Part shown: positions 6,107 through 53,270 of the stretch, one piece after another
Numbering within the stretch: position 1 is the stretch's first letter
Layout of the letters: each line of letters begins with the position of its first letter
Assembly (NCBI GenBank): GCA_951406725.2
Contig: OX597817.1
Location: 149,978,001 to 150,042,000, forward strand
Direction of reading: 5' to 3'
Source of the DNA: Octopus vulgaris
Taxonomy: Eukaryota
DNA length: 64,000 nucleotides
The notes under the pieces: generated by a model
Seen by the model: only the letters and a program-made list of their open reading frames with translations
The model's database searches: none
Told to the model about the DNA's origin: nothing
Program-made: the position numbers and the translations under genes

Positions 6107-6304
6107 ATTATAACAAATAATATCTTTAATAACATATAAGAGGTTAGATGAAATACTCTTTAGAATCATTTATGGGGAATACTGGTTTCAAATTTTGGCG
6201 CAAGGCCAGCAGCTAGTCAATTTCTTTGACCCCAGTGTCAGCTGGTATTTATTTTATCAACCCCCCAAAAGGATAGAAAGCAAAGACAACCTCAGCAGAA
6301 TTTG

Positions 6305-6761
6305 TGTCAGTGGCACACAAAAAGCACCATTTGAGCATGGTTGATGCCAGTGCTGCCTGACTGGCTCCTGTGCCAGTGGTATGGAAAAGGTATCATTCAA
6401 GGGTGGTCAATGCCAGTACCACCTGATTGGCTCCCATGCCGGTAGCACATAAAAGGTACCATTCGAGCATGTTTAATGCCAGTGCCGCCTGACTGACCCT
6501 TGTGCCAGTGGCATGTAAAAGTACCATCCAAACATGGTTGATTCCAGTACTGCTTGACTGGCCCCCATGCTGGTGGCATGTAAAAAGCACCCACTACACT
6601 ATTGGAGTGGTTGGTGTTAAGAAGGGACATCCAGCTGTACAAACCTTGCCAGATCAGACTGGAACCTGCTGCGGTCTCCTGACTAGCCAATCCTCTGTGA
6701 AACCATCTAAAACCCATGTCAGCATGGAAAGTGGATGTTAAACGATGCTGATGATGATGAT
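6305..6761 (+). mobile_element. RTE 3' UTR fragment (family D) with 4-5 VNTR units, inserted into a family A SINE
   Basis: Repeated gtgccagtggcac..aaaagcaccattcgagc units then D tail; split family A halves at ~6185-6302 and ~6762-6828. Confidence 0.8.
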
Positions 6762-15076: not shown

Positions 15077-15743
15077 TTTTATCTTTCTATTCCAGATTGT
15101 TCTTGGTGAATAAAGCTATGTCTTATTTCATTCAATTTATTCAGTAAGAAAATAAATAAATAAATAAACACAGCAAAAAATTTGTTGGACATATTATTTA
15201 CATCATGAATTATTGATGGACGATAACTTAGAGAAGCTGAAAGGATTTTTCAAACCTGAGAAATTTAATGCCAATCCAGTTTCTACCACCACCAAAGAGT
15301 GGTGCCACTAGGGACATTTCTGAGATCCATTGTATCTTATTCACCAAACAGGCTTCACACTTCCATTAATTATTTATCCTCAACAGTTTATGACTATCTC
15401 CCTGATGCCGCTAACTACAAAGCTGTGATTCAGATACTTGAAACATTATATTATGACATCTAATGAAGTTTTTGCGTGCCATCTTATGACAAGCAGCTGC
15501 CAAGTATCACAGGAATAAACTGACAAGTTCCTTCAGGCATTGAAATTACAATCATTGCTAAGAGTTTGCAATGCTATCAATGTGGGTCAGCACTATGGAG
15601 AATCACTTAGGGATACATTATTACAGGTCTTGCAACTCGGTACATCTGACTATGCTTGCTGGAAAACACAGCTTTGGATTTGAAAATGTCACACTTTGAA
15701 ATCCACAATAAACAAACAACATGTACAGTAATATGGGATATCT

Positions 15744-16283
15744 AACCCTTTCATTGTCAACCTGCTTATGACTGTCCCCTGGTTCTATAATACAAACTTC
15801 CTATTTTAGTAACTGTGCTTCCCAACCACATGATTCTGGGTTCAGTCCCACTGTGTAGCACCCTGGGCAAGTGTCTTCCACTATAGCCTGGGGCCAACCA
15901 ATGCCTTGTGGGTGGATTTGATAAACAGAAACTAAAAGAAGTCTATCGTATATATACATGTGTGTGAGTGTATTTGGGTCAGTGTTTGTCCCCCACTACC
16001 ATTTGACAACCAACCTAGTGTTTACATCTCCATAACTTAGCAGTTTGACAAAAGAGACTCATAAAGTGAGTATAAGCCTTGAGAAAAAAAGAATAAATAC
16101 AGGGGTGGATTCATTCAACTTAAAATTCTTCAAGGCGATGCCCCAGCATGGCTGTAGTCACATGACCAAGACAAGTAAAAGATAGAAGATTTCAAACACC
16201 AGTTTAAAAATGACCAAATTATTTTATTAAATTCTTAATTATTTTCAGAATTCATTGAAATAAAGACAGTGTCTCTCAACAGA
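15744..16283. mobile_element. Degenerate piggyBac-like MITE (M2) with a nested family B SINE (~15812-16188)
   Basis: taaccctttc start, gtaacaaaaagggt end, family B sequence inside. Confidence 0.6.
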
Positions 16284-16532
16284 AATATGTAACAAAAAGG
16301 GTCACTAGCAGGCCATGATGTTGTTACCAGACAGATCTCATCAAATTAAAGCTATTTGTGATAACATCTTGGTTGCTACCTATAACAACAATCACAGTCT
16401 TTGATTTTTATGCACCAAACATCATTCTTGTCATACTTGTTCATATTCATTAAGCCAGGTGTAGAAACTGTGATGAACAGTGTCAATAAAGATAGGTGTA
16501 TGTGTATATATATACATATATATATATATATA

Positions 16533-16992
16533 TGTTGAAATAATAATTCATCTCTCTCTGTAAAATGCTGCGGTTTTAACCGTTAATACATGGTGTTTGT
16601 CAATTTTAACCCACACCGGTGGAAAGGGGAGAGCAGAAATTCTTCGCTTGCATATTCGAATTTGGTAGCACTTTTAGTTCGAGCAGAATTCTAGAAGTGA
16701 TAAGAAGCCGAAAGGGTATGCTCCCAACTTTCAGTGTTCCCAAATCCGATACAAGGAATTCTGAGCTGACGAAAGAAATGTCGAATTGACTAATCTAGAA
16801 ACGTACGTTCTCAAATAACCTTTGCACTTGATTTTTTAATGTTTTTTCCCCCATACCTTTGTGAGTTGGTTTAGGCAAGCACTATCTGAGAGAGATCTTC
16901 TTTAAGTATTAGAAATAGCTGAAGAAATTTCTTTAGCTGCTATTTCTAATGAGTTCAGTATGTGGCAAAGTAATTTATTTTACTAAGCCCTT
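16533..16992 (+). mobile_element. Short Penelope-like element in (TA)n carrying an intact hammerhead
   Basis: Relatively CpG-rich ~460-bp segment between TA runs; hammerhead at 16762-16813. Confidence 0.6.
16762..16813 (+). ncRNA. Type-I hammerhead ribozyme motif with intact core
   Basis: tgag-CTGACGA-a-aga(aat)gtc[gaatt]gac(taa)tct-a-GAAA-cgtacg-TT-ctca; palindromic stem III; predicted GUU cleavage after 16809. Confidence 0.75.
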
Positions 16993-16999
16993 ATATATA

Positions 17000-17066
<67 letters not shown>

Positions 17067-19446
17067 CATATATATATATATATATATGTTTCACTGCATT
17101 CTGGTACATAATCCATCACTAATTCCAACACTTATGATTGCCATAATAAGTGGCTTTGCTACTGGCATTTCAAGATTGTCTCTTCAAAATTGGGAAAGGA
17201 AGATTTACAAGTCTTTGTAAGACATTAGTAGTTCAGAATTCTTCATCAGTAAATTTATCATAAAAGAACAATCACTTATTAAGCATCATTCTTCAAAGAT
17301 GTGACTGCAGCTGACTCTTCCCTGTCCACTTGTATCCATGGTTACTGCTTGAACAACTTCAAACTTCTAAAGGCATGGATGGTAATCAGATTGACACTTG
17401 GTTGAACCACACAAAGAAGCTGCTTGCCATAATGTATCTAATGGAGAGAGTGCTCTGCCGCCCTCTTATCTTAGGATGATGACAAAAGTGTGCTTGGCTG
17501 AAGCTGCTACACAATTATCTGGCTGAGGAAAATCTCTTGTAATAACTCAATACAAACTATGTGTGCATGTGTGTGTGTGCATGTGTGTGTGTGCATGTGT
17601 GTGTGTGTGCATGTGTGTGTGTGTGTGTGTGTGATTATCTTTTAATGGCCATATTCCATGCTGGTATGGGTTGGACAGTTTAACAGGGTCTAATGTGTCC
17701 AGGGACTGCATCATGCTCCAAAGTCTGCTTTGGGATCGCTTCTATGGCTGGATGCCCTTTCTAATGCCAAACACTTTACAATATATACTGGGTGCTTTTC
17801 TTGTGCTACTAGCACTACTGAGGTTGCCATGCAGCTGACAAATCTACAAGACCTGGGAGGTGGGGCATTATGCTTGCAGATAGGGCTTAAGGTATGTAAT
17901 AAGGGATTGGGGCAGAGTAGGTTCTAGTTCTAGAGGGGCAACATGGCTACTCGCATTTGGGAGAGAGTTATATATAAATTGTTAGCAGCTACAAAGAAGT
18001 CAAATAGTCGTGATGAGGTGTCCAGGTGGCATTTCAAAGTACAGAGAGAGTAGGGGTGGGGACAGAGAAAGTAGGAGTGAGTGATCTGTAGGGAGTGTAT
18101 GGAGGAAAGAAAAGGGGAGAGGGAACCCTGCCCATGTGGGCAGGGTTAAATGGGTTATTTCTTTTCTCCATGATGGGTCAGGGAACCACACCTCACTCAC
18201 AAGTTTAATCTTTGACCCTTCCTTGCACCAGCAACTTTACAGAATGTAGTGGGTGCATATTTTAAAGGGACCAGCATCAAGCAGGTTGCTATGTCTTCTG
18301 TGGAATCTTCATGACTCTACGCACAAGAGTGTATTGAGTACATTTTATCATGGCAGTAGAATTAGAGAGGATGGAAGAGAGAGTGATGGGTAGCAAGAGG
18401 TGGATAAATGGCAAGAGTGAATAATGGATGTCAGTTCCAAGCAGCCAAGGAGGAATACTGATAGAGTGTGTGAGGTATATACAGATGTGACGAGATCTCC
18501 TGGGAATAGCCTCAAGATGGCAAAAGAACTGGAGTCATGACAGTGAGAAAGGAAAGGATGGAATATTGGAGAGAGGGTCATGGAATTCTAGTTACACTAG
18601 AAGCAATGTATGGTGAGCCAAAGGAGATCCAGTGTTATCCTTAGTTACATCAGCATCTAAGAAGAGTTGAGATGAGAGATGGGCAATAGAGGCACAAACA
18701 CTAGAGACATGAGTAATAAAGTTGGGGGCAACAGAAATATAGATGACAGGGGCATGGAGAGGTGAGTGATAGGGGTATTAGAAGCTATATGGGGGTGGGG
18801 TCAAAAATGTAGCCATAACACTTTGTATATGCATACACACACACAGAGATTACCATTACAACAAACACACACGTGTAGGTATGTGTGTGTATTTTGGAAG
18901 CTGACTGTTGTGGCTGGTCAGAGAGTGACCACTGGTTTCATACTTATTAAGCACTTAGCCATATAGGTGCTTCATTTTGGATTTACGATCTTCTAACAAT
19001 TCACAAATATATTTGTACATATATACACACATACATATACACATTCACACATACATACACCTATAATCATATAAGTTTGAATGTATCGTACAAGCCTAAA
19101 TAGACACTTAGACACATATACATATATACATATGCATACATATTCACGAAAACATGTTCCACAATGCCTGGACGAACACTTGTTCCACAATGCCTGGACA
19201 GGAAGGTATGTCTTCTCCTGCAGAGTGTGTCACCAATCCACAGGCTTTTTGCCATCTCTTCAAGGTGCAACAACTTCAAATACATCTTCACCACTTTGTC
19301 CCAAGCATTCCTTGGTTTTTGTCTTCAGCCAATTTCATTCACTTTACACATGCAACAGGGACACATAAACCACAGACATCACCCCCACATCACCCCACCC
19401 CATTCAGCAGTAAACAGAATCATGCACCTTATGTTCTTTATCTACC

Positions 19447-30809: not shown

Positions 30810-31283
30810 ATCAAATTTGATGACTGGCATCCATGCTAGTAGAGTACTAAGAGTACCATCCAAACATGATCATTGCCAGAGCAGCTAACTGGCTTCCGTG
30901 CTGGTGGCACATAAAAAGCACCATTCGAGCATGATCTTTACCAGCGTTGCCTTACTGGCACTTGTGCCGATGGCACGTAAAAATCATTCGAGCAAGGTTG
31001 TTGCCAGTGCCGCTGGACTGGCTCCTGTGCAGGTGGCACATAAAAAACACCATTTGAGCATGGCTGTTGCCAGTACTGCCTGGCTGGCCCTCATGCCAGT
31101 GGCATGTAAAAGCACCCACTACACTCTCGGAGTGGTTGGCATTAAGAAGGGCATCCAGCTGTAGAAACTCTGCCTGATCAAGATTGGAGCCTGGTGCGGC
31201 CATCTGGTTCACCAGTCCTCAGTCAAATCGTCCAACCCACACTAGCATGGAAAGCAGACGTTAAACAATGATGATGATGATGA
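30810..31283 (+). mobile_element. RTE 3' UTR fragment (family D) with VNTR
   Basis: VNTR units, D core and (GAT)n. Confidence 0.85.
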
Positions 31284-51499: not shown

Positions 51500-52075
51500 T
51501 CATCATGATTGTCATCATCGTTTAACGTCCGTTTTCCATGCAGGCATGGGTTGGACAATCTGACTGAGGTCTGTAGATCCAGCAACTGCATCAGGCTCCA
51601 ATCTGATCTGGCAATGTTTCTACAGATCGATGCCCTTCCTAAAGCCAACCCCTCCGAGAGTGTAGTGGGTGCTTTTTACGTGTCATCAGCACTAGAGCCA
51701 GTCATGCGGGCCTGGCATTGATCACAGTCGGATAGTGATTTTTACGTGCCACCAGCATGGGGGCCAGTCAGTGAGTACTGGTATCGACTACGTTCAGATG
51801 GTGCTTTTAACATGCCACCAGCACAGGAGCCAGTTGGGCAGGCCTGGCATTGATCACATTCAGATAGCGCTTTTTACATGCCACCAGCACAGGAGCCAGT
51901 CAGGGGACACTGACATCAACCATGTTTGGATAACGCATTTTACGTGCCACCAGAACAGGAATCAGTCAAGGGGTACTGACCACAGCTACAATTTTGGTTT
52001 TACTTGACTCAACAGGTCTTCTCAAGCATATCATATCGCCTAACACATCAGGGGTACTCTTAAATGGGCCAGACA
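51500..52075 (-). mobile_element. RTE 3' UTR (family D) with five 66-bp units
   Basis: Unit starts at 51669, 51735, 51801, 51867 and 51933. Confidence 0.85.
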
Positions 52076-52894: not shown

Positions 52895-53270
52895 ATAATC
52901 ATCATCATCATTATCCTTTAACGTCTGCTTTCCCTACTGGCATGGGTTGGATGGTTTGACTGAGAAGTGGTAGGCCGGGAGGCAGCGCTAGACAGTAATC
53001 TGATTTAGCAAGGTTTCTACAGCTGGATGCCCTTCCTAATACCAACGACTCCAAGAGTGCAGTGGATGCTTTTTATGTGCCACTGGTACAAGAGCCAGTC
53101 AGGCAGCACTAGCATCGACTGCACTTGAATAGCGCTTTTTATGTGCCACTAGCACAGGTGCCAGTCAGGTGGCACTGGCATCAGCCCCGCCCAAATGGTG
53201 CTTTTTACATACCACCAGCAGGGGTGTCAGTCAGGCAACACTGGTATCCACCACAACTATGATTTCACTC
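52895..53270 (-). mobile_element. RTE 3' UTR (family D) with 3 VNTR units
   Basis: D core and units. Confidence 0.8.

What the first reader, a model, noticed from the sequence alone, without database searches (positions are those of the whole stretch)
16762..16813. Best-preserved hammerhead, in a young-looking element within (TA)n
All core nucleotides are intact (CTGACGA, GAAA, GUU). Stem I is tgag/ctca, stem II is interrupted (aga..gtc/gac..tct) and stem III is the perfect palindrome cgtacg. The host segment keeps several CpGs, unlike neighbouring repeats, and interrupts an older Gypsy relic, so it is probably recent. If this DNA is a transcribed + strand intron, the RNA could self-cleave after 16809.
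Basis: partly seen in the sequence, partly recalled or inferred. Interest (0 to 1): 0.8.

Follow-up and report, generated by a model that had tools for sequence, protein, structure and literature searches.

The report
Hammerhead retrozyme with Penelope-type insertion ends
This hammerhead RNA motif sits in one shortened copy of an abundant, protein-free 558-base repeat that lands in TA repeats and is likely pasted in by a Penelope-type jumping-gene enzyme; it is likely a new member of the known animal 'retrozymes', and self-cutting is untested.

Summary
The motif is real, but it is a family trait and not a special copy. The same 50 bases occur 84 times in this genome and a looser pattern 2,260 times (control 2). 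The window holds one 5'-truncated copy (16533-~17004) of a non-coding 545-564-bp unit. Copies form head-to-tail arrays and mirrored pairs, almost always in (TA)n. Stems I and II show compensatory changes across subfamilies. Insertions end at two fixed sites about 100 nt apart, downstream of the cut site; 75 of 80 mirrored insertions use one of each. That is the Penelope 'tail' signature. Intact Neptune-type elements exist in the genome, but none shares sequence with the unit. The insertion does split an older LTR-retroelement relic. I found no host gene or intron. Verdict: a new member of the metazoan non-LTR retrozymes. This scan has noted the same kind of element and end rule on other DNA.

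The parts
16533..17004 (+). 5'-truncated retrozyme copy: unit positions 282-558 then 1-~195, counted from the hammerhead cut site; lacks the ~90-100 nt tail between end sites A and B
16762..16813 (+). type I hammerhead motif; predicted cut after U16809 (GUU)
16753..16822 (+). extended stem I (AAGG 16753-56 / CCTT 16819-22) beyond an internal loop; one pair changes on both sides in 11 of 25 variants
16773..16797 (+). stem II: A.A at 10.1/11.1 (U.U, A-U or G.U in other subfamilies), 3 bp, 3x3 internal loop, 3 bp, loop
16801..16808 (+). palindromic stem III ACGTACGT; predicted unstable as a hairpin (+2.4 kcal/mol), stable as an intermolecular duplex (-9.8)
16908..16950 (+). long hairpin, first arm of the conserved structured 3' region
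16991..17004 (+). end site A (TA-rich run after AAGCCC), joined to the (TA)n target; inferred start of reverse transcription
16505..16532 (.). left (TA)n target tract
17005..17087 (.). right (TA)n target tract
15091..16473 (+). left part of an older, broken LTR-retroelement relic (gag-like by recalled motifs), itself split by another repeat at about 15815-16090
17130..17336 (+). right part of the same relic, collinear with paralog L163

Best explanation
The motif is the hammerhead of one 5'-truncated copy of a non-coding, 545-564-bp tandem-unit repeat that is likely a non-LTR retrozyme mobilised in trans by a Penelope-like (probably Neptune-type) reverse transcriptase-endonuclease. Shown: multicopy family, tandem and mirrored arrays, (TA)n targets, two fixed 3' ends about 100 nt apart, structure-preserving variation in the hammerhead. 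Inferred: tandem arrays are transcribed; two hammerheads pair through the palindromic stem III (or are helped by protein) and cut out unit-length RNA; a host ligase closes it into a circle; the borrowed enzyme binds the conserved stem-loop region (unit ~100-290), nicks (TA)n DNA and starts reverse transcription internally at site A or B, often from both target strands with one site each; copying past the unit junction gives arrays. The window copy is a single product started at site A that stopped after about 470 nt. Alone, with one hammerhead and no partner unit, it would cut slowly if at all and cannot release a full unit.
For: Family size: 84 exact and 2,260 loose hammerheads; 3,161 matches to a tail motif. 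Unit 545-564 bp, 34% G+C, at least 7 subfamilies at 85-95% identity; arrays of 12 or more units; a 558-bp unit read in the same strand; no family unit was seen joined to a reverse-transcriptase frame in the loci read. Of 122 insertions parsed, 119 had both flanks: 118 touch (TA)5 or more, 103 on both sides; 80 are divergent mirrored pairs, 75 with one A and one B end; all 39 single arms were classed A (25) or B (14). Ends lie 190-294 nt downstream of the cut site, not at it, as for the internal two-site start shown for a Penelope-like enzyme in vitro (PMC11167929). Hammerhead variation: 97.4% of cells paired, 4 of 17 pairs and 26 cells change on both sides (shuffled mean 8.4; slid controls 0-4); among subfamilies N7, H17, 10.1 and 11.1 vary while the 11 core and 6 stem III columns do not, against 26% of columns overall. 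The unit folds strongly as a circle (z -5.9, 40 shuffles). Intact RT + GIY-YIG frames with a CxxxxCxxC linker, 96-99.7% identical to each other, sit in (TA)n in the same genome.
Against: No cleavage, transcription or circle was observed. No autonomous partner was identified: none of 64 Penelope-like loci shows an element whose own end repeat matches the unit (local-alignment z at most 1.8; the hits in L177 and L031 are separate neighbouring insertions, and a 64-nt hit in L197 was not examined). The G10.1-C11.1 pair is absent and H17 is U. The core invariance is partly built into my search patterns. Covariation comes from related sequences and counts inherited changes many times; pairs with two-sided change were matched in 67 of 500 shuffles. 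5' ends are not enriched at the cut site (8 of 107, p 0.47), which fits circles but equally an uncut template. In the anole element, ribozyme mutants did not affect insertion in vitro (PMC11167929), and 8 of 9 predicted Xenopus retrozyme dimers did not cleave (10.64898/2026.07.22.740005). The unit is longer than the 170-400 nt of PMC7229834, though inside the 51-972 bp range of the 2026 preprint.
Confidence: 0.85

Rival explanations
1. Same family and same Penelope-type mobilisation, but the hammerhead is now a passenger: uncut multimeric transcripts from tandem arrays are the template, and no circle is made.
For: A.A or U.U at the base of stem II, U at H17 and an unstable stem III; no 5'-end peak at the cut site; hammerhead mutants do not impair insertion of PAc in vitro (PMC11167929); minimal Penelope hammerheads cleave weakly even as dimers (PMC4209133).
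Against: Core and stems are kept, with two-sided changes, across variants as distant as about 75% identity. An axolotl retrozyme with U.U at the base of stem II does cleave, better as a dimer, and makes circles (PMC7229834 passages).
Confidence: 0.3
2. The copies are only truncated end repeats (pLTRs) of an autonomous Penelope-like element that I did not find, not a separate non-autonomous family.
For: Ends, tail, mirrored structure and (TA)n target are those of autonomous elements (PMC8557442 passages); only 150 of 6,136 and 150 of 7,615 endonuclease candidates were scored.
Against: Arrays of up to 12 or more direct units with no coding DNA between them; in the family loci read, every arm ended in (TA)n, unrelated DNA or a mirrored arm; the sampled autonomous families have unrelated end repeats.
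Confidence: 0.08
3. One reading: the motif acts at this locus by cutting a + strand host intron.
For: The motif is on the + strand and intact; about 43% of Xenopus retrozyme copies are intronic (10.64898/2026.07.22.740005).
Against: No + strand gene evidence in the 100 frames scanned; a single copy has no dimer partner in cis; nothing sets this copy apart from 83 identical ones.
Confidence: 0.05

Closest known systems
Metazoan non-LTR retrozymes (Cervera and de la Pena 2020, PMC7229834: abstract, passages and section 14 read; Li, Clavereau and Pollet 2026, 10.64898/2026.07.22.740005: parts 1-3 of 5 read)
   Same: Non-coding low-GC tandem units, one type I hammerhead each, thousands of copies, strong self-pairing, coexistence with Penelope-like elements; non-canonical pair at the base of stem II as in axolotl HHR_Amex2.
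   Different: Longer unit (545-564 bp against 170-400 nt); circles and cleavage not shown here; no sequence link to a sampled autonomous end repeat, unlike 21 of 57 Xenopus families; 'octopus' and 'cephalopod' do not occur in the main text of PMC7229834.
EN+ Penelope-like elements, Neptune type, and their tail (Craig et al. 2021, PMC8557442: passages; Frangieh et al. 2024, PMC11167929: main text, parts 1-2 of 4)
   Same: 5' truncation, partial tandems, inverted 5' copy, tail at only one end, microsatellite targets, reverse transcription starting inside the RNA at two sites downstream of the hammerhead.
   Different: No ORF; the tail is about 95-105 nt rather than 30-40; both start sites are TA-rich and resemble the target, whereas PAc starts in an AC-rich loop not homologous to the cut DNA.
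Minimal hammerheads of Penelope end repeats (Cervera and de la Pena 2014, PMC4209133: parts 1-2 of 4)
   Same: Type I, 4-bp stem I, long stem II, palindromic stem III, probable dimer activity.
   Different: Lacks the conserved G10.1-C11.1 pair reported there; has a 3x3 internal loop in stem II, a 6-nt palindrome and a conserved distal extension of stem I.

Membership tests
type I hammerhead ribozyme | conserved core CUGANGA / GAAA / UH in type I order | tested here: met
type I hammerhead ribozyme | stems I and II supported by variation | tested here: met
   two-sided changes in 4 of 17 pairs; related sequences, so not a probability
type I hammerhead ribozyme | G10.1-C11.1 closing pair of canonical and minimal motifs | tested here: not met
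   A.A, U.U, A-U or G.U in all 169 motifs read; usual but not obligatory, since an active axolotl motif has U.U (PMC7229834)
type I hammerhead ribozyme | match to an Rfam hammerhead model | tested here: not met
type I hammerhead ribozyme | Mg2+-dependent self-cleavage | not testable with these tools
   bench assay needed
non-LTR retrozyme | tandem non-coding units, one type I hammerhead per unit | tested here: met
   the window copy itself is sub-unit length
non-LTR retrozyme | G+C below 45-50% and strong self-pairing | tested here: met
   34% G+C, circular fold z -5.9
non-LTR retrozyme | abundant unit-length linear and circular RNA | not testable with these tools
   only assembled contigs of runs not on record as RNA were offered
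non-LTR retrozyme | autonomous Penelope-like elements in the same genome | tested here: met
non-autonomous derivative of a specific Penelope-like element | sequence homology to its end repeat | tested here: inconclusive
   none among the families sampled; sampling incomplete
Penelope-type insertion | 5' truncation, inverted 5' copy, tail at one end, microsatellite target | tested here: met
autonomous Penelope-like element | RT + GIY-YIG frame | tested here: not met
   no open frame of 90 aa overlaps the element; units abut one another directly
Gypsy relic (flanks) | gag-protease-RT order with LTR-type RT | tested here: inconclusive
   RVT_1 E 1.7e-5, below cut-off, in paralog L163 only; window flanks had no relevant Pfam or database hit; gag and protease labels recalled

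The most novel reading that the evidence does not exclude
The family records in the genome how a Penelope-type enzyme works on a borrowed RNA: a dimer primes both strands of the (TA)n target on one RNA molecule, one subunit at site A and one at site B. No insertion had two B ends, and the one A/A call is B/A when a separated piece is counted. Both arms exceed one unit in 14 of 73 cases, and both stop at the same template position in 11 of 73 (permutation p 0.0006). A monomeric circle carrying each site once would give this pattern. It would be in vivo support for the rolling-circle retrozyme model, with an unusually long (~100 nt) tail and a structured docking domain that shares no sequence with the presumed driver.
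Probability: 0.3. Interest if true: 0.6.

Novelty: new member of a known kind. Interest (0 to 1): 0.3.

Why it matters
The motif itself is ordinary for animals that carry Penelope-like elements. The family is useful because it is young, has thousands of datable insertions with strict ends, and sits beside intact candidate drivers. That makes two open questions testable: which enzyme moves animal retrozymes, and whether the template is a ribozyme-made circle.

Tried and rejected
Rfam: no hammerhead model matched; the miRNA hits are simple-repeat and hairpin artefacts. Expression: no RNA holder listed; contigs of four runs, one guessed to be RNA, covered the family, and that run had no cover on the flanks, which shows nothing about this locus; no second read-laying result was obtained. 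Presence/absence polymorphism could not be read because no contig spans the (TA)n tracts. Peak of 5' ends at the cut site: absent. B arms stopping at site A (collision of two primers): 11 of 73 B arms against 5 of 73 A arms of 70-115 nt, p 0.09, not significant. Enrichment of 5' ends at site B, where the window copy starts: 6 of 195 ends at unit 279-294, about what a uniform spread gives; rejected. Autonomous partner by sequence: not found. Protein database search of the gag-like flank: no hit. Lunse et al. on dimeric Penelope hammerheads was not held; only its title was seen. That GUU cuts more slowly than GUC is recalled; one search gave nothing I read. Literature searches for this family or end rule found no description of cephalopod retrozymes or of the one-A-one-B rule beyond the statement that the tail is often at one end only; supplements were not read and subscription papers and repeat databases are not held.

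Full report
Observation. The 52 bases at 16762-16813 are as described: stem I TGAG/CTCA, core CTGACGA, a stem II of 3 bp + 3x3 loop + 3 bp, GAAA, palindrome CGTACG, then U16808, U16809. The predicted cut is after 16809. The two bases that should close stem II, A16773 and A16797, form an A.A mismatch. Stems I and II have pairing probabilities of 0.6-0.99 in a 76-nt fold, stem III 0.00; the 8-nt palindrome costs +2.4 kcal/mol as a hairpin and gains -9.8 as a two-molecule duplex. Rfam does not recognise the motif.

It is a family trait. The window lies in a 2.8-Gb animal genome (probably an octopus, inferred from size and repeats, not stated by any tool). The exact 50-mer occurs 84 times and a loose pattern 2,260 times against 2 for the control; a related stem III variant adds 70. 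The host is a unit of 545-564 bp, 34% G+C, in at least 7 subfamilies 85-95% alike (56 distinct full units). The window copy runs from 16533 to about 17004, covers unit positions 282-558 and 1-~195, and is 97.4% identical on average to 95 full-length matches; six differences are its own and none lies in 16762-16813. It is young, but not specially preserved.

Is the hammerhead under constraint? In 169 motifs read from fetched loci, N7 is C, U or A, H17 is U or A, and 10.1/11.1 is A.A, U.U, A-U or G.U, never G-C. On 25 chosen variants, 97.4% of stem cells pair and 26 cells change on both sides (shuffled mean 8.4; slid structures 0-4): AGA/UCU becomes GGA/UCC, GUC/GAC becomes GUU/AAC or GCU/GGC, and a distal stem I pair goes G-C to A-U. 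Caveats: the sequences are related, the count of pairs with two-sided change (4) was reached in 67 of 500 shuffles, and most loci were picked by a pattern containing the core. A partial check: of 20 loci picked by the tail motif and lacking the hammerhead pattern (20 of the 23 such places I listed), 19 stop short of the motif and one (L118) carries an intact core with a 1-nt longer stem III.

Anatomy of insertions. I parsed 122 insertions after dropping 8 overlapping fetches; 3 ran into an edge or gap. Of 119, 118 touch at least (TA)5. Eighty are divergent mirrored pairs and 39 single arms (two of the latter, L085 and L111, look mirrored by eye but were split by my 60-bp rule; L153 and L154 may be one duplicated locus). 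The outer 3' ends fall at site A (class 165-205, mostly 191-203) or site B (class 277-298, mostly 294), counted from the cut site. Seventy-five mirrored pairs have one A and one B end; none has B/B; one is A/A by script but B/A when a piece 186 bp away is counted (L069); four have an unclassified end. Loci were chosen by likeness to the window, by the hammerhead, or by the B motif; none of these choices forces one end of each kind, though the last guarantees a B motif. Among 73 simple A/B pairs, 62 have arms that copy overlapping template, 14 have both arms longer than one unit, and 11 stop within 12 nt of the same unit position (expected 3.5, p 0.0006). 5' ends show no peak at the cut site. 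The region around A and B is the most conserved part of the unit and folds into a multi-stem domain in which nearly all changes keep pairing, though only 1 of 45 pairs changes on both sides.

How it likely works. Truncation, partial tandems, an inverted 5' copy, a tail at one end and microsatellite targets are the marks of EN+ Penelope-like elements (PMC8557442, passages). A purified element of this class nicks and extends both target strands and starts at two internal RNA sites that bound the tail; its hammerhead cuts only with protein and is not needed for insertion in vitro (PMC11167929, main text). I infer that such an enzyme binds the conserved domain of this RNA and starts at A and B. 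Arrays and arms that run through an intact hammerhead need a template that is either circular or uncut multimer. Retrozymes of coral, mussel and axolotl make circles by self-cleavage and ligation (PMC7229834, passages and section 14), so circles are my preferred reading, at roughly two to one over an uncut template. The window copy is one A-started arm.

The driver. A GIY-YIG search found a young family with 781-aa open frames. Ten copies are 96.4-99.7% identical, carry RT and GIY-YIG, a CxxxxCxxC linker, direct end repeats and (TA)n flanks. A second family (46% protein identity) has a hammerhead-like motif with U.U at the base of stem II and a palindromic stem III, like the commonest subfamily here. 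Neither end repeat aligns with the unit. 'Neptune-type' rests on the linker motif; no tree was built. The partner is therefore a candidate, not identified.

Surroundings. The flanks match a paralog (L163) in order on both sides of the insertion at about 70% identity; 657 bp in the window correspond to 67 bp there. Further on, the paralog has an RT hit (E 1.7e-5, below cut-off). An older LTR-type relic is thus interrupted; 'Gypsy' is plausible but rests partly on recalled motifs. No + strand host gene was found in the 100 longest of 212 complex open frames.

Verdict. A real type I hammerhead motif of probably weak, dimer- or protein-dependent activity, in a new member of the metazoan non-LTR retrozymes with Penelope-type ends. 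The class and its link to Penelope-like elements are published (PMC4209133, PMC7229834, 10.64898/2026.07.22.740005). The strict one-A-one-B rule is the most informative detail; I reached it before looking at this scan's notes, which report the same pattern for other families. Interest 0.3.

Noticed in passing
L165:430-5672 (G000:C16:20834500-20842000) and L166-L174: Young Neptune-type Penelope-like family with an intact 781-aa RT + GIY-YIG frame, a second upstream frame of 479 aa with no Pfam hit (L168, L169), a ~30-nt tail and a hammerhead-like motif with the U3-A8 core variant (UUGAUAA).
   Followed up: partly
L176:2582-4985: Second Neptune-type family; a mirrored insertion with 766-bp arms 100% identical; hammerhead-like motif with CCGAAGA or CUGAAGA core, U.U at the base of stem II and GUAC stem III.
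   Followed up: partly
L177:5013-5340 and 6160-6440: Two further mirrored (TA)n insertions, 70-79% like the conserved domain of this unit: more distant relatives of the family.
   Followed up: no
L035-L058, about 500 bp after the endonuclease match: An older Penelope-like family whose end region carries its own hammerhead-like motif with a long stem II.
   Followed up: no
window:34039-34299 (-): Open frame with weak C1/PHD-finger hits (E 1e-5, below cut-offs); exon or transposon piece.
   Followed up: no
window:61783-61825: 43-bp fragment 79% like the site A region of the unit (E 0.008).
   Followed up: no
window:6303-6591, 30889-31111, 51669-51968, 53067-53242: A dispersed 66-bp tandem repeat family with 3-4.5 copies per array.
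   Followed up: no
window:4565-4660: Long near-perfect inverted repeat of about 45-bp arms.
   Followed up: no
window:10555-10616: tRNA-like Rfam match just over the gathering score (30.1 bits), probably a SINE head.
   Followed up: no
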